Assembly (NCBI GenBank): GCA_016194285.1
Contig: JACQBZ010000035.1
Location: 385 to 64,384, forward strand
Direction: 5' to 3'
Origin: Nitrospirota bacterium
Lineage (GTDB): Bacteria; Nitrospirota; Nitrospiria; JACQBZ01
DNA length: 64,000 nt
In this document: positions 6,290-13,702 of the stretch, in pieces
Layout of the letters: every line of letters starts with the position of its first letter
How positions within the stretch are numbered: the stretch's first letter is position 1
Program-made: the position numbers and the translations under genes
The notes under the pieces: generated by a model
What the model was told of the DNA's origin: nothing
Database searches by the model: none
What the model saw: the letters and a program-made list of their open reading frames with translations, nothing else

Positions 6290-6922
6290 TCAGTGGCCGT
6301 GGGGATCGCCGCCTTTGGGATTCTGTTCGGTCGCCGGCGGGCCCGGCGCCGCCTTGGGCGCTTTTGGGTACATTGGCTTTTCCTTTTCTCCCGGCGATCC
6401 CATCATCGGTTCCATCGGGTGACCCATGCCGTGGCCCATCTTCATCTCCATCTCTTGAAGCTGCTGACGTTGTTCCGGCGTCAGGACCGCCTTGATCTGC
6501 TGCTGGAGTTGAAGATGGCTGATCTCCAGATCGGCCATCGCCTCGTACTTTTCCTTCGTCTTCGCCTTGACCTTCTCCAAATTGACCGGGTCGGCCATCA
6601 GGAGCTCTTCGATTTCCACCCCGGCCATCCGGATCCTTCCGAAAAGGGGGATCGCCTCCTTTTGATGCTGAATCCGGAGGGTCTGGATCTTCTTCCGCTG
6701 CTCCGGCGTCAGGTCCAGATGATTGATCGCCATCATCGTCCTCATCATGCCCCTCATGCCGCCGTCCATCCCCATCCCTTCATGCATGCCCATGCCCTCG
6801 TGCATGCCCATTTCGTCGCCGCGCATTTCCTCGCCCGGCATCCCGTGCATCTGAGCCGGGACGGCCGACGGGGCCAGCATGAACACCAAACTGCAAACGA
6901 CCAAGATCAATCTTCGATGCAT
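6290..6922 (-). CDS. Periplasmic Spy/CpxP/ZraP-family protein with Met/His-rich termini (metal-stress chaperone-like)
   Basis: Signal peptide. Two LTPEQR(K/Q) LTxxQ motifs. N-terminal MHGMPGEEMRGDEMGMHEGMGMHEGMGMDGGM and C-terminal MEMKMGHGMGHPMEPMM tracts. Confidence 0.75.
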   Translation of the reverse strand: MHRRLILVVCSLVFMLAPSAVPAQMHGMPGEEMRGDEMGMHEGMGMHEGMGMDGGMRGMMRTMMAINHLDLTPEQRKKIQTLRIQHQKEAIPLFGRIRMAGVEIEELLMADPVNLEKVKAKTKEKYEAMADLEISHLQLQQQIKAVLTPEQRQQLQEMEMKMGHGMGHPMEPMMGSPGEKEKPMYPKAPKAAPGPPATEQNPKGGDPHGH

Positions 6923-6955: not shown

Positions 6956-8671
6956 CTACCGGCCGGGTCCCTGGCGCAATCGAATAAAGAACCAGGCCAG
7001 CAAGACGACAAACAACGGAACCGCCAGGGCGCTGAGCGAGAAGCCCAGAATCGTTCTCGTGCCCTCCAGATAAAGAAGCCCGAGCATTCCGAAGAAGACG
7101 GCCGTCAGGACGATCCCCAGAATCCTCAGATCGTTCTGCCGGTCGAATTCCCGCTCGATCTCTTTCAAGTCGCCCGCATCGAATTTAATTCCGATCTCCC
7201 CCCGCTCCAGCTTTGTCAGCACGCCCTGAACCCGATCGGGTAGATCCTGGATGAATCCCAAGTAGTCCAGAATATCCGCTTCCAATGTCTGGAGCGTTTT
7301 TGCGGGGCTGAAATGCTTCCACATGGCCTTTTTCACAAAAGGTTCCAGCTCCCGATTAAAATCAAACTCCGGGTACAACATCAAACCCATGGACTCGGTC
7401 GTCACCAGCGCCTTGCCGAACAACGCGAGATCTCCCGGAAATCGGATGCCGTTCTGCGCCCCCCGGTTGATCACGCGGAAGAAGGCCCAGGCCACGCTCG
7501 GCCGGCGCTCCGAGAAGAAAAATTCGCTCAGGATGCCGGCCACGTCTTTTTCAAAACTGCCGACATCGCTCTTTTCATCGATCAAGGCCATATGCAGGAT
7601 GTGTTTGATGAACCCGTCGACGTCCTTGTTGACAAACGAGACAAGACAGCTCAGGAGTTCTTTGCGCGTTCTTTGATCGAGGTATCCGACCATCCCGAAA
7701 TCGTGAAGGCAGAGCCGACCGTCCGGCATGGCGAAAAAATTTCCGGGATGGGGGTCGGCATGGAAAAAGCCCGATATAAAAAATTGGTGAAAGAGGGCGT
7801 CCACGCCGATCGAGGCCAATTGCTTCCGGTCCAATCCAAGCGCCCCGATCTGGCCCAGGTCATTGGCTTTCACTCCATGCGAAAACTCCATGGTAATGAC
7901 CCGGGGCGTCGTAAAATCCCAGAATATTTTCGGAATGTAAATTTGCGGGTTTTCTTTAAAGATAAAGGCAAACCGTTCCGCGTTGTGGCCTTCGACTCCG
8001 AAATCGAGTTCCCGCAGGGTCCAGTCGGCAAATTCCCTGACCACCCTTACCGGCTGATAGACCCGCAGTTCGGGGATAAAACGCTCCGCCAGGCCGGCTA
8101 GGTAATAAAAGATGTGGACATCCTGCTCGATCATCTTCCGGATACCCGGCCTCTGGATCTTCACGGCGACCTCGGTCCCGTCCTTCAACACGGCCCGGTG
8201 CACTTGAGCCAGTGAGGCCGCCGCCACCGGCGTCTCCTCAAACGATTTGAAAACCTCCTCGGGATATCGGCCCGTTTCCTCCTTAAAAATGCGCCGGGCT
8301 TCCTCGCCAGGGAATGGCGCGGCGTCGCTTTGAAATTTTGAAAGTTCTTCGGCCAATGCCTCACCGACCACGTCCGCCCTCAGGCTTAAGACCTGCCCCA
8401 ACTTGATAAACGTCGGGCCCAAGCGTTCCAAAACAGACCGAAGGACGTCGGGGGACAGAACCGGTCTTCCCGTTTCCATCCGGATCAGGCGCGCCTCCGA
8501 CGTCCGTCGTGTCAAGAAGCCCGAGAGCCGGGACCAAAACGGGATGAGATATTTCAGCCGGAGTTGATCGATCAGCGCACCCCCGCCCGACTCGCTGACC
8601 ACCGTCAGAATCTTCCGTAAGCGATTCAGGTCCGAGAATCCGACTCTGAAAGATCGAGCGTCTTTATTCAT
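6956..8671 (-). CDS. ABC1/UbiB-family atypical kinase with C-terminal TM helices
   Basis: [30 protein letters not shown] and HADPHPGNF motifs typical of the ABC1/AarF/UbiB family. 571 aa. Confidence 0.85.
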
Positions 8672-8677
8672 GGGTAT

Positions 8678-9019
8678 CTACTTCGGCGCCTCTGGCTGCA
8701 TCATCCCCTGCTGTTTCATCATGTCCTGATGCTGTTTCATCATCTGGTCCATCTGCTTCATCATCTCGCCCATCTCCTGCTTACCGCCCTTGTCTCCCAT
8801 CATGCCTTGCATGTGCTGCATCATCTTCTTCATCATCTCCATCATCTCGCCCATCTGATTCATCATCTGCATCTGACCTTGATCCGCACCTTTCATCTCC
8901 ATCTCGCCGCCCTTCATCATTCCGCCCCCCTTCATCTGGGCTGAAACCACCGGGCCGATCATCAAAACCAGAGCCAACATTACGACTGTGACCATTGCGG
9001 TATTCATGCGGATATTCAT
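8678..9019 (-). CDS. Secreted, extremely methionine-rich small protein (113 aa)
   Basis: Start moved to ATG 9019, preceded by AAAGGAGG. Signal peptide MNIRMNTAMVTVVMLALVLMIGPVVSA. The mature part is MM/MK/MQ repeats, 28 Met in 86 residues by hand count. Confidence 0.7.
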   Translation of the reverse strand: MNIRMNTAMVTVVMLALVLMIGPVVSAQMKGGGMMKGGEMEMKGADQGQMQMMNQMGEMMEMMKKMMQHMQGMMGDKGGKQEMGEMMKQMDQMMKQHQDMMKQQGMMQPEAPK

Positions 9020-9139
9020 GGTTGCCTCCTTTGGTTTCTCCGTTAAGGTTATTCTACAAATTGTCCGGTTTTTTTTAAAATTTCTCCCTTCAGACGGCCA
9101 GGCAGAAGCAGCCGGTCTGTATCCGCCCCACAATGTCTC

Positions 9140-9829
9140 CTACGGATTCTGCGGAAGATCCCATCGAAACACCGCCTCTTTTTCACCCGGCAATCCCTTC
9201 AAAGTGAGCTCAAGCCAGGTCGGCGGCTTCTCGCCCGGAAGATGCTCGCCGATCAGATGCCCGATCAGGTGCTCACCCGCCTCGGTCATCTGCGGAAAAA
9301 ACAAGACCCCCTCTAAATGCCGGGAAGACGCGCCGCGCCCTTCCGACCACTGCCAGGGAGGGATACTAATCTCTTTGTCGTTGCGCAACAAACTTTTCTC
9401 TTTCACATCATACATCCTCAGATCAACCGATGTCGAATCCATTATAACCGTGAAGCCAAGATTATCGTGGACGTTAAATCGCTTTGCATACTCATGGTAG
9501 AGGGCATCCGGACGCTTCATGCCCCGCGCTCCTTCCGCCACCGCCAGGGTTCTGAAGAATTCGGGTGTATTCCAGGTCACGGTGATCCTGACGTCACCGG
9601 CGGTGGCCTTCCGGGTGAACGTGTCCTTCACGCGATGGAATGCTGCGACCCCCGCCGTGGAATCTTCAGGAACTTCCGCACCGGGAATATCGGGGCTGCG
9701 ACTGACGAACTCTTCGACCTCCCGGTGCTTTACGAAATCCCAGACGATGAACCCGGCTAATAAAATCAGACCCACCACGACATACGGCCAGATCTTCGCC
9801 TTTCTCCGAATATTGTTCATCTCCATCAC
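9140..9829 (-). CDS. Membrane-anchored periplasmic protein of unknown function, ends FRWDLPQNP
   Basis: One N-terminal TM helix (IWPYVVVGLILLAGFIVW). Shares motif order with the 18693-19133 protein. Start is ambiguous (GTG 9829, ATG 9826 or ATG 9820). Confidence 0.6.
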   Translation of the reverse strand: MMEMNNIRRKAKIWPYVVVGLILLAGFIVWDFVKHREVEEFVSRSPDIPGAEVPEDSTAGVAAFHRVKDTFTRKATAGDVRITVTWNTPEFFRTLAVAEGARGMKRPDALYHEYAKRFNVHDNLGFTVIMDSTSVDLRMYDVKEKSLLRNDKEISIPPWQWSEGRGASSRHLEGVLFFPQMTEAGEHLIGHLIGEHLPGEKPPTWLELTLKGLPGEKEAVFRWDLPQNP

Positions 9830-9839
9830 CCCCTTGAGT

Positions 9840-10427
9840 TTACGCCCGCCGCCAAAGGCGTGGCATGAAACGAGGCACCTGTTCCATATACTCGCGGTAG
9901 GCCGGCAAGCGCTGGAGCAGATCGATTTCTTCCAAGCGAGCTTGGACGATAAGCCAGACGAATCCGAGCGCGCAGGCTACCCCGACAGTGAACGTCGGCT
10001 TGAGCAACACCCCCCCAACACATATCAAAAGTCCGCCGGCATAGATCGGATGGCGGACATAAGCATACACGCTGTGGCGTACCAACGCGTCGCGGACAGA
10101 AGGCCACCCTGTTGGCTGGCCCAACACCACATGGCCCCAGACGAATGGAACCGAACCCACGGTAACGAGTAGCCAGCCGAGACTCTTCGCTGCCCAACCA
10201 CCGATGAACAACAACGGTGCAGGCTGAAACCATGCAAGGAGAAAACCCCAGAGGCCTAAAGGTATACCGAGGTAATTCCTTAAGATCGATGTGGCCAGTT
10301 CACCCTGCGGTTCGCCCCACCAACGCGAGTAGGCCGCCGTGAAGGCGCTGGCTCCAGCCAGGCCAAAACCGAGCAGCAAGGGGATAAGAAACAGATACAT
10401 CTCTTGACCCGCAACAGTTATTCCCAT
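9840..10427 (-). CDS. ICMT/phospholipid-methyltransferase-family membrane methyltransferase
   Basis: Multi-TM protein with the VRHPIYAGGLL motif of the isoprenylcysteine carboxyl methyltransferase / PEMT family. Confidence 0.75.
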   Translation of the reverse strand: MGITVAGQEMYLFLIPLLLGFGLAGASAFTAAYSRWWGEPQGELATSILRNYLGIPLGLWGFLLAWFQPAPLLFIGGWAAKSLGWLLVTVGSVPFVWGHVVLGQPTGWPSVRDALVRHSVYAYVRHPIYAGGLLICVGGVLLKPTFTVGVACALGFVWLIVQARLEEIDLLQRLPAYREYMEQVPRFMPRLWRRA

Positions 10428-10678
10428 CGCCGGAGGATGAAGTTATAAATCGGCACATACACAAGTCCGGTGTAGGCTCCATATATAAAGCTCCTCAGCA
10501 GTCCCACGAAGAAGCCGGAGAGGCTTCCCCATTTAAAACCCGGGAGCGCAATCTCCAGAAACTCGTGCATGTGCAGGCTCTCCGGCGCGATGAGGCCATA
10601 CAGCACGCAGAGGAGAAAGGTCACCGTGCTAAAAATCGCCAGCGACCAAGTCACGATTAGAAGATTCAGCGGTTTCAT
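10418..10678 (-). CDS. Small membrane protein, paralog of 13442-13702 (DUF5676-like from memory)
   Basis: 86 aa, 2-3 TM helices. Aligns with the 13442-13702 product (..IAPE(S/T)..., G(S/A)..G...G..Y(N)). ATGA overlap with the upstream ORF. Confidence 0.6.
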   Translation of the reverse strand: MKPLNLLIVTWSLAIFSTVTFLLCVLYGLIAPESLHMHEFLEIALPGFKWGSLSGFFVGLLRSFIYGAYTGLVYVPIYNFILRRWE

Positions 10679-10803
10679 CGGCGACCCCCTCTTTCATCTT
10701 TATCGTGCCCCTCATGGCCGCCATGTCCTGGAAGCAGATGGCAGCCGACCATCAATAAAACCACCAAGATAAAAAACCAATTCTGTCTCAGGAATTCAAT
10801 CAT
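10675..10803 (-). CDS. DUF2933-like mini-protein (TM helix plus HGGHEGH tail)
   Basis: MIEFLRQNWFFILVVLLMVGCHLLPGHGGHEGHDKDE. Internal ATG of the 118-aa track ORF was chosen because it makes ATGA overlaps at both ends. Confidence 0.5.
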   Translation of the reverse strand: MIEFLRQNWFFILVVLLMVGCHLLPGHGGHEGHDKDERGGRR

Positions 10804-11072: not shown

Positions 11073-13409
11073 TCAGCTGGTGGACAGCTTCTTCCGCTTC
11101 AGCAACGCCGAGTTGACGATGACCGATAGAGAACTCAAGGCCATCGCGGCCGCCGCGATAATCGGATTTAAAAAGCCCAAGGCTGCCACCGGAATGCCGA
11201 TGGCGTTATAGATAAAGGCCCAAAAAAGATTTTGCTTGATCTTCCGCATCGTGGCGCGGGAGAGGCGGATGCCGGACACCACGTCACGCACATCGTTCTT
11301 GACCAGAATGATCCCGCCGGTCTCTTTCGCCACATCCGAACCGGAGCCGATGGCGATGCCGATATCGGCCGCCGCCAATGCCGGGGCATCGTTGACTCCG
11401 TCGCCCACCATCGCCACCACTTTTCCCTGTTTTTGTAAATCCTGCACGACCCGAGCTTTGTCGGCGGGCAGGACTTCGGCAATGACACGTTCAATCCCCA
11501 ATTCCTTTGCAATCGCCCGGGCGGTGCGCTCGTTGTCTCCGGTGAGGAGAATCACTTCGACGTTCTCCGTGCGCAGGGCAGCGACCGCCTCTTTCGCCTC
11601 CGGCTTGAGCGTATCGGCCACTGCGACGACCCCGACCAACTTCCCATCGCACCCAACGAGCATGGCCGTTTTGCCCTCCGATTCCAGACGCGTCATTGAT
11701 GCTTCCGCTGTCGCGGGGTCGATCCCCTCCCGCTGAAAAAGACGCCGGTTGCCCAAGAGGACCTTTTTCGCATCGACGTCTCCCCGGATCCCGTGACCGG
11801 GGATCGCCTCAAACCCGGTGACTTTGGGAAGCTCCAGTCCGCGGTGTGTAGCTGCCCGAACGATCGCTTCGCCCAAGGGATGTTCCGAGCCGACTTCCAC
11901 GGCGGCGGCGAGTCTCAGGATTTCCTCTTCCTTCGAATCGGAGAGTGAAATAATGTCCGTGACGTTCGGCTCCCCTCGAGTGAGCGTTCCGGTCTTGTCG
12001 AAGATGACGGCCGTGAGTTTCTGGGCCCGCTCGAGGACTTCGCCCCCGCGGATCAAAATGCCGCCCTCGGCTCCCTTGCCGACGCCCACCATCAGCGCCG
12101 CCGGGGTGGCGATGCCCAGCGCGCAGGGGCAGGCGATGATGAGCACGGCGATGAAGGCAAGCAGCGCTTGCGGAAAATTGCCCGACAACCACCAGCCGGC
12201 AAAGGAGAGAACCGCCACTCCTACGACGGCCGGAACAAAGTAGCCCGTCACCTGATCGGCGATCCGCTGAATCGGCGCGCTGCTGGCCTGAGCCTCTTCC
12301 ACCATTTTGATGATCTGGGCCAGAGCCGTCTCGGCGCCCACCCGCGTGGCCTTGAAGCGGAACAGGCCGGTGCGATTCAACGTGCCGCCGATCACCTGCG
12401 CCCCCGGCCCTTTTTCCACCGGCATCGATTCGCCGGTCAGCATCGACTCATCAACCGCCGAGGCCCCTTCCAGCACCGCTCCATCGGTCGGAATCTTCTC
12501 CCCGGGGCGTACGACGACAATTTCATCTATCATCACCATCTCGGCAGGAACCTCCACCTCTGTTCCTTCCCGAATGACGCGGGCCGTCGCCGGTTTTAGA
12601 TCCATCAGTTTGCGCACGGCGGCCGACGAGCGTTTTTTGATCAACTCCTCCATATATTTTCCTAACAGCACAAAGGCGATGATGACGGCCGAGACCTCAA
12701 AATAGACGTCCCGCTCCTCGACCTTCACCGGTAGCACATCGGGAAAGAAAATCACGGCCACGCTGTAGAGGTAGGCCACCGTGGTGCCGAGTGCGATCAA
12801 AAAGTCCATGTTGATCGTCCGGGTCCGTATGGCGTTCCAAGAACCGACGTAGAAGGACCACCCGCCGATGAATTGCACCGGCGTCACCAGGATGAAGAGC
12901 CACATGCCCCATGTGAACCAGGGAAGCTGAGGAATCGGCGCCCAGGTCACGATGGTCGCGCCCGCCGCCAGCGCGATGAAGGCCGCGGCCCGGAGGATCG
13001 CCAGGGCCAGAACTCCTGTCAGGGCGATCGTGACACGGGTCCGCATCGATTTGAGTTCGGCCTCGGGCGATTCGAAGGTTCGCTGACAGCCGACGCTGCA
13101 AAAATAGTAGGCGCGTCCTCCTCGCTCCGATTTAAGCGCCGTCGTCTTGTCCACCACCATCCCACAGATCGGGTCCTTGGCTTTCTCCTTTGAAGCCTTG
13201 ACAGCGGCGGTGGGCATACCCTCAGCCGCCTCCGCTTTTGCTTCCATCTGTGTGACACGATGACCTTCCAAGATGAAACTTGCTGGATTCATCTCAAATT
13301 TGCGGAGACACTCCGGAGAACAGAAATAATAGGCCACTCCCTTATAGACCGATCTGCCCGCCGCCGTCTTCTCGTCCACCTGCATGCCGCATACCGGATC
13401 GGTTATCAT
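11073..13409 (-). CDS. copA: Cu(I)-translocating P1B-type ATPase with two N-terminal TRASH/YHS domains
   Basis: [17 protein letters not shown] and [46 protein letters not shown] and MALSS transmembrane signatures. Start at ATG 13409, 6 nt after GAGGAGG. Confidence 0.92.
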
Positions 13410-13441
13410 GACCATCCTCCTCTGTTTTACATCCCGATCCC

Positions 13442-13702
13442 TTAACTCCGGGAGAGACGGTTGTAGATCCAAGCCACCGCACCGGCCAGGAAGGCCATCC
13501 CAAGGCCGGTTCCCAGAAGTCCGGCAATGAAACTCCCCCAACTGATCGTACTGGCCATACCGCTGAGATCAATATGAAAGAGATAGCTAAAAAAAGCTCT
13601 GGTTGTCTCAGGTGCGATAGCCACGAAGAACGCGCAAATCGTAAAGACCGCAGCCGTGACAGCCCCCACGGCGAGGGCAAAGGCACGAATATCCAGTTTC
13701 AT
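13442..13702 (-). CDS. Small membrane protein, paralog of 10418-10678 (DUF5676-like from memory)
   Basis: [34 protein letters not shown]... AAGGAGG upstream of ATG 13702. Directly upstream of copA. Confidence 0.6.

What the first reader, a model, noticed from the sequence alone, without database searches (positions are those of the whole stretch)
8678..9019. Secreted 113-aa protein that is about one-third methionine
After a clear signal peptide, the mature 86 residues contain 28 Met by hand count. They are arranged as MM, M-x-M and MMK/MMQ repeats: QMKGGGMMKGGEMEMK...MMEMMKKMMQHMQGMMG...DMMKQQGMM. The gene has a strong RBS. It lies between an unknown membrane-anchored protein and the ABC1 kinase, downstream of copA. 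Met-only arrays bind Cu(I)/Ag(I) in CusF/PcoE/CopA-type proteins and can also act as sacrificial oxidant sinks. This density is extreme.
Basis: partly seen in the sequence, partly recalled or inferred. Interest (0 to 1): 0.6.

Follow-up and report, generated by a model that had tools for sequence, protein, structure and literature searches.

The report
Secreted one-third-methionine copper-island protein
A groundwater Nitrospirota bacterium makes a small exported protein in which methionine is one residue in three and the only hydrophobic residue. Its gene neighbours in many relatives point to it soaking up or passing on toxic copper or silver ions outside the cytoplasm, but nothing has been measured.

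Summary
The ORF at 8678-9019 (-) is real. It encodes 113 aa with an AGGAGG ribosome-binding site and a signal peptide (VSA|Q). The mature 86 aa hold 28 Met (33%), no Leu/Ile/Val/Phe/Cys, and only ten residue types. It is by far the most Met-rich ORF of its genome.

It is under purifying selection (dN/dS 0.16-0.22). It belongs to a small unnamed family: 37 representatives among 1.84 billion, and every named record is Nitrospirota. The model is a floppy Gly/Met tail plus a helical hairpin with Met on one face of each helix. It has no Pfam, NCBIfam or PDB relative, and it is not SilE/PcoE, CopM, CusF, Spy/CpxP or MrpX by sequence.

Context points to soft-metal handling:
- Relatives sit directly beside small cytoplasmic YHS proteins in five gene orders, in MerR-CopA-cupredoxin islands, or beside HlyD-ABC-OEP exporters.
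- Two relatives are fused to the Ig-like domain of the window's upstream neighbour.
- No Msr gene lies in 16 loci; this genome keeps secreted MsrA/MsrB beside another Met-tailed protein.

Best reading: a periplasmic Cu(I)/Ag(I) thioether buffer or relay (about 0.55). The scan has noted similar proteins on other DNA.

The parts
8678..9019 (-). Gene for the 113-aa Met-rich secreted protein (stop at 8678-8680)
   Evidence: ORF and translation. Eight close homologues at 53-84% identity. dN/dS of 0.16-0.22 in five pairs.
8939..9019 (-). Signal peptide, residues 1-27 (MNIRMNTAMVTVVMLALVLMIGPVVSA), cleaved before Q28
   Evidence: It has an n-region with Arg, a hydrophobic core and V-S-A at -3..-1. 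A27 and Q28 are invariant in close relatives, and the ..SAQ|M junction recurs across the family. AF2 models a helix over residues 4-27. No SignalP run was possible.
8885..8938 (-). Mature N-terminal Gly/Met tail, residues 28-45 (QMKGGGMMKGGEMEMKGA), predicted disordered
   Evidence: AF2 pLDDT is below 50 over residues 27-44. The GGGMMKGG motif is conserved.
8798..8884 (-). Helix 1, residues 46-74, with 13 Met
   Evidence: AF2 helix 46-73 with pLDDT 74-81. The Met cluster on one helical face; 0.24% of shuffles reach the observed clustering.
8711..8791 (-). Helix 2, residues 77-103, with 8 Met and the M94-x-x-H97-x-x-M100 motif; H97 lies inside the Met face
   Evidence: AF2 helix 77-103. Helical-wheel test: 0.32% of shuffles reach the observed clustering. 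H97 is invariant in close relatives.
9025..9030 (-). Shine-Dalgarno AGGAGG, 5 nt before the ATG
   Evidence: Read directly from the sequence. Conserved in L003.
9051..9079 (-). Sigma-70-like promoter candidate (TTTAAA-17-TAGAAT)
   Evidence: Consensus scan with 9 of 12 matches. The site is retained in L003, and the intergenic region is 90% identical overall. A consensus match only.
9091..9119 (-). Conserved imperfect hairpin (CAGACCGGC..GCCGTCTG) between the neighbour gene and the promoter-like site
   Evidence: Read from the sequence. Conserved in L003. Its function is unknown.
9140..9829 (-). Upstream partner: a 229-aa membrane-anchored periplasmic protein with an Ig-like beta-sandwich ending in FRWDLP
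   Evidence: Its residues 119-225 are homologous to the C-terminal domain that two family members (P0017, P0035) carry fused to the Met-rich hairpin (E 1e-8 and 2e-7). AF2 pLDDT is 86.6. It has no Pfam or NCBIfam hit.
6956..8671 (-). ABC1/UbiB-type atypical kinase; its start is 6 nt after the Met-rich stop, so it is probably co-transcribed
   Evidence: Pfam ABC1, E 2e-80. The same order is seen in L003/4/5/13. ABC1 recurs in related islands L030, L032 and L041.
6290..6922 (-). Spy/CpxP-like LTXXQ protein with Met/His-rich tails (13% Met)
   Evidence: Pfam Metal_resist and LTXXQ, NCBIfam Spy and CpxP. Conserved downstream of the ABC1 kinase in L003.
11073..13541 (-). P1B-1-type Cu(I)/Ag(I) ATPase CopA with two N-terminal YHS domains
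   Evidence: Pfam E1-E2_ATPase, Hydrolase and YHS x2. Motifs CPC471, YN778 and MALSS800 are present.
9840..10803 (-). Island genes between copA and the pair: a His-tailed mini-protein, a DUF5676 2-TM protein and an ICMT/PEMT-family methyltransferase
   Evidence: Pfam hits. The same trio stands next to CopA, cupredoxin and MerR in L030.
18693..19133 (-). Secreted 146-aa paralogue of the Ig-like 'FRW' domain
   Evidence: 36% identity, E 5e-13, to the C-terminal domain of the fusion protein P0017. Its orthologue lies two genes upstream of the Met-rich gene in L003.

Best explanation
The gene encodes a periplasmic soft-metal protein, most likely binding Cu(I) and probably Ag(I), that belongs to a Nitrospirota copper-stress island.

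Proposed mechanism:
1. After Sec export and cleavage at VSA|Q, the 86-residue product has a flexible GGGMMKGG tail and a helix-turn-helix hairpin.
2. Met replaces every aliphatic residue, so the apolar face of each helix is a strip of thioethers, with one conserved His (M94-x-x-H97-x-x-M100).
3. Facing strips, within one hairpin or between hairpins, would offer many three- or four-thioether sites that capture Cu(I) pumped out by the YHS-type CopA or leaking in from outside.
4. This would buffer Cu(I) and may pass it to partners: the Ig-like 'FRW' protein encoded upstream (fused to the hairpin in some relatives) and, in other lineages, a haem-c membrane protein (Aq_1264_TM) or an HlyD-ABC-OEP exporter.

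Shown: the gene, its export signal (by sequence), its conservation, the Met-specific selection, the hairpin model and the gene linkages. Inferred: metal binding, the stoichiometry, the partners' roles and the induction by copper.
For: 1. It is a real, selected gene. It has 8 close homologues and 37 family representatives. dN/dS is 0.16-0.22, like its neighbours.
2. Selection is for Met itself, not for hydrophobicity. The window protein's Met positions remain Met in 77% of cells across 31 relatives and become L, I or V in only 7%. Mature family members average 28% Met and 3% L+I+V+F.
3. The geometry fits. AF2 gives a hairpin (helices 46-73 and 77-103). Met cluster on one face of each helix (0.24% and 0.32% of shuffles reach the observed value), and H97 lies inside the Met face. 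i/i+3/i+4 Met/His strips on helices are the motif type shown to bind Ag+ in SilE (PMC5008109).
4. Gene linkage points to copper:
   - A small leaderless YHS protein is the immediate neighbour in five different gene orders (L006, L039, L007/L038, L030, L037). A YHS domain was characterised as a probable copper sensor (PMC4626032).
   - L030 is a MerR - DUF2933 - ICMT - CopA - cupredoxin - DUF5676 - YHS island that ends in a tandem two-hairpin version.
   - L042 has the hairpin::FRW fusion 2.8 kb behind an 82%-identical YHS-CopA.
   - The window's own CopA has the Cu(I) signature CPC/YN/MxxSS.
5. Rosetta-stone fusion: P0017 and P0035 join the hairpin to the domain of the window's upstream neighbour.
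6. No CusF was found in this genome, which is 88.6% complete.
Against: - No binding, expression or phenotype data exist.
- copA adjacency is not conserved in the closest relatives (L003: 219-aa protein, Met-rich, ABC1, CpxP-like, hydrogenase, with no copA within 8 kb upstream). In genomes G004-G006 the gene lies between a type II P-type ATPase and pyruvate kinase.
- Two near-complete genomes of the same genus lack it, so it is dispensable.
- The family was gathered with a Met-rich profile, which inflates the apparent conservation of Met.
- The loci come from related MAGs, so the contexts are not fully independent.
- In E. coli CueO, deleting the Met-rich domain did not abolish copper resistance (PMC12510620, PMC11494321). 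Met-rich tracts therefore need not confer resistance by sequestration.
- The AF2 model has only moderate confidence (mean pLDDT 65).
Confidence: 0.55

Rival explanations
1. It is a sacrificial periplasmic oxidant sink of the MrpX type. The exposed Met would scavenge hypochlorite, peroxide or copper-driven oxidants and be re-reduced by periplasmic methionine sulfoxide reductases. This reading does not exclude metal binding.
For: - Its composition resembles MrpX: small, secreted, and made of Met plus charged residues. MrpX is 20% Met and 44% charged (PMC4436054); this protein is 33% Met and 26% charged.
- The genome encodes two MsrA with signal peptides and an MsrB with an N-terminal leader, so periplasmic repair is available.
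- The GGMMKGG-type tail resembles the tails of the Msr-linked Met-rich protein on contig C78.
- Copper stress itself oxidises periplasmic Met-proteins such as CusF in E. coli (PMC9302797).
Against: - No Msr or sulfite-oxidase-family gene lies within 5-8 kb in any of the 16 loci examined.
- In this genome the secreted MsrA/MsrB and an ECF sigma/anti-sigma pair sit on another contig, beside a different Met-tailed protein.
- The recurrent partners are metal-related proteins: YHS, CopA, MerR and cupredoxin.
- A sink needs exposed Met but not the conserved amphipathic register or the conserved His.
Confidence: 0.15
2. It is a protein-binding adaptor or chaperone. The flexible Met face would act like the 'methionine bristles' of the SRP54 M-domain or like Spy. 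It would bind unfolded envelope proteins, or dock onto the Ig-like FRW protein or the Aq_1264_TM cytochrome as a subunit, with no direct metal chemistry.
For: - It is fused to the FRW Ig-like domain in P0017 and P0035.
- It recurs immediately beside the 4-TM CxxCH protein Aq_1264_TM (L006, L007/L038, L039, G005).
- A Spy/CpxP-like gene lies in the same array, and DegP and FtsH lie in the related locus L032.
- The only PDB sequence matches are designed coiled coils.
Against: - hhalign against the neighbouring CpxP-like family aligns only the signal peptide and the first residues.
- No LTXXQ hit reaches threshold.
- A docking helix would tolerate Leu, Ile or Val, yet Met is kept in 77% of cells and L, I or V appear in 7%.
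- The window genome has the gene but no Aq_1264_TM was found in it, at 88.6% completeness.
Confidence: 0.15
3. It is not a gene, or the gene is on the wrong strand. On this reading the Met run is a by-product of a His/Leu-rich ORF on the plus strand (8729-8944, HHLxHLLHH), or a chance low-complexity frame.
For: The antisense frame is open here and in relatives, and His-rich proteins can bind metals.
Against: - The antisense frame is open automatically, because the sense frame lacks Leu and Ser codons (TTA, CTA, TCA) whose reverse complements are stops.
- The sense frame has a ribosome-binding site, a signal peptide and a conserved cleavage site.
- It shows purifying selection.
- It lies in a tight same-strand gene array.
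- In P0017 and L042 it runs in frame into a folded domain that is homologous to independent proteins.
Confidence: 0.02

Closest known systems
SilE / PcoE (periplasmic Ag+/Cu+ 'molecular sponge' of the sil and pco determinants; PMC5008109)
   Same: - It is a small Sec-exported protein of about 100-140 aa, rich in Met.
- It is largely disordered or helical, with ligands spaced i/i+3/i+4 on one helical face, including one MxxHxxM element.
- It is encoded within a soft-metal export island beside a P1B ATPase.
   Different: - No sequence similarity was detected.
- It has 2 His, against 10 conserved His in SilE and PcoE.
- It has 28 Met, against 10 in SilE and 15 in PcoE.
- It has no aliphatic residues at all.
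- It forms a single hairpin rather than about six helices.
- There is no RND CusCBA/SilCBA operon; the partners are YHS mini-proteins, an Ig-like protein, a haem-c membrane protein or an ABC-type tripartite exporter.
- It is confined to Nitrospirota and is not plasmid-borne (no match in the plasmid collection).
MrpX of Azospira suillum (methionine-rich periplasmic hypochlorite scavenger working with YedY1/MsrP; PMC4436054)
   Same: It is a small secreted protein made almost wholly of Met and charged or polar residues.
   Different: - No yedYZ/msrPQ or SigF/NrsF linkage was found in any of 16 loci.
- Its context is metal handling.
- The Met content is higher: 33% against 20%.
- The genome's Msr-linked Met-rich protein is a different gene, on contig C78.
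CopM of Synechocystis (Met/His-rich periplasmic helical-bundle Cu(I) protein, DUF305; PDB 5FEJ; PMC4335983)
   Same: It is a helical, Met-lined periplasmic protein from a copper-response locus.
   Different: - It gives no DUF305 hit.
- The Foldseek matches to CopM are not significant (E of 6 or more).
- It is a hairpin, half the size of a four-helix bundle.
- It has far fewer His.
Met-rich domain of CueO and the 'Mets' motifs of Ctr1/CusB/CopA-type proteins (PMC11494321; the thioether-only Cu(I)/Ag(I) sites are cited from my own knowledge of the Ctr1 Mets-motif peptide literature)
   Same: It has dense MM, MxM and MxxM arrays: 10 MM, 3 MxM and 11 MxxM in 86 residues. These offer thioether-only sites that are insensitive to oxidation state and pH.
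   Different: - It is a free-standing protein rather than an insert in an enzyme or transporter.
- It has no catalytic copper site.
- The CueO work warns that such tracts may recruit copper rather than confer resistance themselves (PMC12510620).
Spy/CpxP/ZraP LTXXQ family (the gene 6290-6922 in the same array)
   Same: It is a secreted helical hairpin-type protein in an envelope-stress array. The mature N-terminus begins the same way (AQM.GGM..). Distant family members carry an H-x-P-T/S-x-x-Q-K-K-L turn that looks like LTXXQ.
   Different: - The profile-profile comparison aligns only the leader.
- The best Pfam LTXXQ hit among family members has E 0.055, below threshold.

Membership tests
SilE/PcoE | Detectable sequence homology to SilE or PcoE | tested here: not met
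   No family matched in Pfam-A (E up to 10) or NCBIfam (E up to 1) apart from noise. tblastn against 72,556 plasmids gave no match.
SilE/PcoE | Ten positionally conserved His within repeated MxxH.../HxxM... motifs (PMC5008109) | tested here: not met
   There are 2 His (H69, H97) and a single MxxHxxM element.
SilE/PcoE | Small secreted protein, disordered in the apo form, that folds to helices on binding Ag+/Cu+ | not testable with these tools
   The signal peptide, the disordered tail and two predicted helices are compatible with this. Metal-induced folding needs CD or NMR.
SilE/PcoE | Encoded in a sil or pco operon with an RND CBA pump and a two-component sensor | tested here: not met
   None of the 16 loci has that layout. 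The partners are YHS, FRW, Aq_1264_TM, ABC1 or HlyD-ABC-OEP genes.
MrpX-type sacrificial Met sink | Small secreted protein made mostly of Met and charged residues | tested here: met
   The mature protein is 33% Met and 26% K/E/D. MrpX is 20% Met and 44% charged.
MrpX-type sacrificial Met sink | Operon or regulon link to a periplasmic methionine sulfoxide reductase (YedYZ/MsrPQ) and an ECF sigma/anti-sigma pair | tested here: not met
   tblastn with the genome's MsrA, MsrB and two molybdoenzymes found nothing in 16 loci. The secreted MsrA/MsrB and the ECF pair are on contig C78.
MrpX-type sacrificial Met sink | Rapid oxidation by reactive chlorine species and enzymatic re-reduction | not testable with these tools
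   This needs biochemistry.
Spy/CpxP/ZraP (LTXXQ, PF07813/PF13801) | A match to the family profiles | tested here: not met
   The window protein gives no hit. The best hit among family members has E 0.055. hhalign against the neighbouring CpxP-like alignment covers the leader only.
CopM / DUF305 | DUF305 profile match and a four-helix-bundle fold | tested here: not met
   There is no Pfam hit. Foldseek against CopM entries gives E 6-10 and probability of 0.25 or less.
CusF (PF11604), CopK, DUF6799 | A match to the family profile | tested here: not met
   No Pfam hit at E up to 10. The predicted fold is all-helical, not a beta-barrel.
Unnamed Nitrospirota 'Met-hairpin' family (defined here) | Signal peptide ending ..SAQ|M, a GGGMM tail, helix 1 (MMxEMMGMMKxMM), a turn, helix 2 (EMMKxMDxMMKxHxxMMK), and about 100-135 aa in all | tested here: met
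   Alignments A1 and A2. The profile search gave 37 hits at E up to 1e-3 and 16 at E up to 1e-10.

The most novel reading that the evidence does not exclude
The hairpin may be the periplasmic thioether 'wire' of an undescribed Nitrospirota Cu(I) pathway that works without oxygen or an RND pump. A cytoplasmic YHS mini-protein would feed Cu(I) to a YHS-CopA or to an HlyD-ABC-OEP exporter. The all-Met hairpin would self-assemble around Cu(I) into a Met-zipper bundle holding several ions. It would then hand them to the Ig-like FRW protein, or to the haem-c membrane protein Aq_1264_TM, which would oxidise Cu(I) to Cu(II) using the respiratory chain instead of O2. That last step would be an anaerobic functional analogue of CueO.
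Probability: 0.12. Interest if true: 0.75.

Novelty: new variant of a known kind. Interest (0 to 1): 0.45.

Why it matters
Periplasmic Met-rich copper and silver buffers are known (SilE/PcoE, CopM, the CueO insert). This family shares no detectable sequence with them and pushes the design to an extreme. Its folded-looking helical hairpin has only Met as hydrophobic residue, and that Met is conserved as Met.

If it binds Cu(I), it would be a minimal natural model for thioether-only multi-copper sites and for metal-driven coiled-coil assembly.

Its conserved partners all lack an assigned function: leaderless YHS mini-proteins, an unnamed Ig-like domain, the CxxCH membrane protein Aq_1264_TM, and an ABC-type tripartite exporter. 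Together they outline how anaerobic, cytochrome-rich Nitrospirota may protect their periplasm from Cu(I) without O2-dependent oxidases or CusF.

The practical value is a short, testable list of genes. The claim itself still rests on inference.

Tried and rejected
- Sequence libraries: Pfam-A at E up to 10 and NCBIfam at E up to 1 gave only noise. The PDB profile search returned only de novo coiled coils.
- Fold search with the hairpin model found nothing below E 4. CopM entries appear among the noise, and I do not count them as evidence.
- Fold search with the neighbour's model (pLDDT 86.6) gave an Ig-like sandwich. The best match was 3fjv, a protein of unknown function (E 3.8e-4), followed by MPT63 and butyrophilin-type Ig domains. 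This gives no functional clue.
- hhalign of the family against the adjacent CpxP-like proteins aligned only the leader peptide. Remote LTXXQ membership is rejected.
- tblastn against the plasmid collection gave no match.
- Pfam family PF27139 (Aq_1264_TM) is absent from the searchable Pfam copy. A protein query found no copy in the window's genome.
- A literature search for Met-rich proteins in Nitrospira-type organisms found nothing relevant.
- The plus-strand His/Leu ORF (8729-8944) was rejected as a mirror-image by-product.
- A direct functional link to the group 3b hydrogenase downstream was considered. I treat it as conserved synteny within this bacterial family: the position relative to the hydrogenase changes in G004-G006, and the more distant loci have no hydrogenase.
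Full report
**1.

The minus strand carries an ORF from the ATG at 9017-9019 to the stop at 8678-8680. AGGAGG (9025-9030) lies 5 nt upstream of the ATG. The product is 113 aa with 33 Met.

The mature chain uses only ten residue types (M, Q, G, K, E, D, A, H, P, N) and has zero net charge. It has no Leu, Ile, Val, Phe, Trp, Tyr or Cys. At the genome-wide ORF Met frequency of 2.6%, the chance of at least 28 Met in 86 residues is about 5e-23. Among 10,742 ORFs of at least 60 aa in the 2.31-Mb assembly it is the top outlier; the next ORF has 13% Met.

The stated surroundings are also right. A membrane-anchored 229-aa protein lies upstream (9140-9829). An ABC1 kinase starts 6 nt after the stop (6956-8671). 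A copA lies 2 kb upstream on the same strand. That copA has two YHS domains and the Cu(I)-pump motifs CPC, YN and MxxSS.

**2. It is a real gene on this strand**

- The word-indexed search found eight homologues at 53-84% identity. In their alignment 25 columns are invariant, 14 of them Met, together with the A27-Q28 cleavage junction and H97.
- Nei-Gojobori dN/dS is 0.16-0.22 in five pairs of orthologues. The neighbouring genes give 0.13-0.21.
- The plus-strand His/Leu-rich frame (8729-8944) is open only because ATG, AAG, GAG and CAG reverse-complement to CAT, CTT, CTC and CTG, and because the sense frame lacks the codons whose complements are stops.
- The sense frame has the ribosome-binding site, the leader and the same-strand operon. 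In some relatives it continues in frame into a folded domain (section 5).

**3. The family is small, unnamed and Nitrospirota-only as far as records are named**

A profile search of 1.84 billion cluster representatives gave 37 proteins at E up to 1e-3 and 16 at E up to 1e-10.

All share one plan (A2):
- a leader ending ..SAQ|M;
- a Gly/Met tail (GGGMMKGG);
- helix 1 (MMxEMMGMMKxMMxxMxGM);
- a short turn (xDxxxK, or HxPTxxQ in distant members);
- helix 2 (EMMKxMDxMMKxHxxMMK);
- a GMM end.

Every named record is a Nitrospirota MAG.

In genome samples the gene is sporadic. Four of 8 genomes of the order have it, but two 98-99% complete genomes of the same genus do not. In an even sample of the phylum, 9 of 401 genomes in 9 of 162 genera have it, some with two copies.

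Variants show that the repeat-like body is plastic. These include a tandem two-hairpin protein (178 aa, L030) and a 13-residue deletion form (P0006).

**4. Shape and chemistry**

AlphaFold2 with the nine-sequence alignment gives mean pLDDT 65. It models the leader helix, a disordered stretch over residues 28-45, and two helices (46-73 and 77-103; pLDDT 74-81) joined by a three-residue turn.

On a 100-degree helical wheel the Met cluster on one face of each helix. The resultant lengths are 0.52 and 0.70, and 0.24% and 0.32% of shuffles reach them. The opposite faces are K, E and Q. H97 sits inside the Met face, giving M94-x-x-H97-x-x-M100.

Across 31 relatives, the window protein's Met positions are Met in 77% of cells and Leu, Ile or Val in only 7%. 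Mature family members average 28% Met and 3% L+I+V+F. Met normally exchanges freely with aliphatic residues, so this argues for selection on the thioether itself. The caveat is that the profile used to collect the family favours Met-rich sequences.

**5. Context**

The immediate array in the window is FRW-type 229-aa protein, Met-rich, ABC1 kinase, CpxP-like protein, then group 3b hydrogenase. It recurs in four JGI contigs (L003, L004, L005, L013). There the copA island is not upstream.

More distant relatives are more informative.
- **YHS neighbours.** A leaderless 47-58-aa YHS protein is the immediate neighbour in five different gene orders:
  - Aq_1264_TM, Met-rich, YHS, HlyD-ABC-ABC2..OEP (L006);
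  - Aq_1264_TM, YHS, Met-rich (L039);
  - ABC2, YHS, Met-rich, Aq_1264_TM, patatin (L007/L038);
  - patatin, YHS, tandem Met-rich, at the end of a MerR - DUF2933 - ICMT - CopA - cupredoxin - His-tail - DUF5676 - YHS - FRW island (L030);
  - YHS, Met-rich (L037).
- **What YHS does.** YHS domains also form the N-terminus of the window's CopA. One was characterised as a probable copper-sensor module (PMC4626032).
- **Fusions.** Two family members, P0017 (246 aa) and P0035 (229 aa), fuse the hairpin to a C-terminal domain (FDTHSV..GSGHH..FRWE). That domain is homologous to the window's upstream neighbour (E 1e-8 and 2e-7) and to a second window protein at 18693-19133 (36% identity, E 5e-13).
- **Fusion locus.** The locus of this fusion type (L042, same contig as P0017; a 242-aa ORF) lies 2.8 kb behind an 82%-identical YHS-CopA.
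- **The neighbour.** It models confidently (pLDDT 86.6) as a TM helix plus an Ig-like sandwich. It has no informative structural relative: the best is 3fjv, of unknown function. Its own family (33 homologues, no Pfam) sits in similar islands.
- **G004-G006.** In these genomes the gene lies between a type II P-type ATPase and pyruvate kinase, once with Aq_1264_TM.

The linkage to soft-metal genes is therefore repeated but not universal.

**6. The rival oxidant-sink reading**

MrpX of Azospira is a secreted protein of 20% Met and 44% charged residues. It is oxidised by hypochlorite and recycled by YedY1, and it is encoded with yedYZ under SigF/NrsF (PMC4436054). The window protein resembles it in composition.

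The genome does have secreted Msr enzymes. They lie on contig C78 in an operon with a different Met-tailed 192-aa secreted protein, divergent from an ECF sigma/anti-sigma pair. That operon is itself an MrpX-like arrangement.

No Msr or molybdoenzyme gene occurs in any of the 16 Met-hairpin or FRW loci. I therefore rank the sink reading second. It is not exclusive, because copper stress oxidises periplasmic Met proteins in E. coli (PMC9302797).

**7. Comparison with known families**

The protein works most like SilE/PcoE, the secreted Met/His 'sponges' whose ligands lie on helical faces (PMC5008109). It fails every testable membership criterion for that family:
- no sequence similarity;
- 2 His against 10 conserved His;
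- a different operon type.

It is also not a CopM/DUF305, CusF, CopK, DUF6799 or LTXXQ protein.

Work on CueO cautions that a Met-rich tract may recruit Cu(I) rather than confer resistance by itself (PMC11494321, PMC12510620).

Earlier notes of this scan describe similar Met-rich secreted proteins on other DNA. These include what looks like the same hairpin-plus-beta-domain fusion (e1-1152777) and a peat Nitrospirota Met/His protein (e1-4933098). Those are unchecked leads, but they show that the general kind is common.

**8. Verdict**

This is a genuine and compositionally extreme member of an unnamed Nitrospirota family. Most probably it is a periplasmic Cu(I)/Ag(I) thioether buffer or relay acting with the Ig-like FRW protein (confidence about 0.55).

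The rivals are an oxidant sink (0.15) and a non-metal adaptor or chaperone (0.15). I class it as a new variant of a known kind, of moderate interest. All functional steps are inferred.

Noticed in passing
Own genome, contig C78:1025-3915 (outside the window; loci L026/L028): This looks like an MrpX-type module. A secreted 192-aa protein has Met-rich N- and C-tails (GEMMEKEKGMMGKEGMM.. and ..MMEKGGMMEKGGMMNEKK..). It is followed by an MsrA with a signal peptide and an MsrB with an N-terminal leader. An ECF sigma/anti-sigma pair lies divergent from them. A second secreted MsrA is at C15:533-1186.
   Followed up: partly
L006:1045-1749, L007:3212-3970, L019:7810-8598, L038:8356-9111, L039:1383-2084: A 4-TM membrane protein (precomputed Pfam PF27139, Aq_1264_TM) has a CxxCH haem-c motif in its first loop. 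It is the immediate neighbour of the Met-rich gene in several lineages, in different orders. It was not found in the window's genome (88.6% complete). Its function is unknown.
   Followed up: partly
window 9020-9139: The 120-nt intergenic region upstream of the Met-rich gene is 90% identical to that of L003, although the encoded Met-rich proteins are only 69% identical. It contains a promoter-like TTTAAA-17-TAGAAT and an imperfect hairpin (9091-9119). It may be a regulatory element, but only two sequences were available.
   Followed up: partly
L030:7899-8435 and L013:785-1087: The family shows length plasticity. One form is a tandem two-hairpin protein (178 aa, 26% Met). Another lacks 13 residues of helix 1 but is otherwise identical to P0004.
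   Followed up: no
window 6956-8671; L030, L032, L041: An ABC1/UbiB-type kinase, and often a patatin-like lipase, recur inside these copper-type islands. In L032 they lie next to DegP and FtsH. This hints at a membrane-lipid or quinone arm of the same stress response.
   Followed up: no
window 6290-6922 and L029:868-1521: The Spy/CpxP-like proteins of these islands are themselves 13-17% Met. Their mature N-terminus begins like that of the Met-hairpin family (..AQM.GGM..). hhalign aligned only that part.
   Followed up: partly
window 8729-8944 (+): A His/Leu-rich antisense ORF (HHLxHLLHH) mirrors the Met-rich gene. Equivalent open antisense frames occur in relatives. It is a compositional by-product and could be mis-called as a gene.
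   Followed up: yes
window 19644-20453 (-): An HD-domain (HD_5) protein has an N-terminal Cys-rich CxxC...CCxxC segment. It lies just upstream of the secreted FRW paralogue in the same-strand array.
   Followed up: no
L029:2491-3618, L034, L038, L042: A PII-like protein and a DUF3047 protein recur beside the YHS / HlyD-ABC-ABC2 exporter modules of these islands.
   Followed up: no
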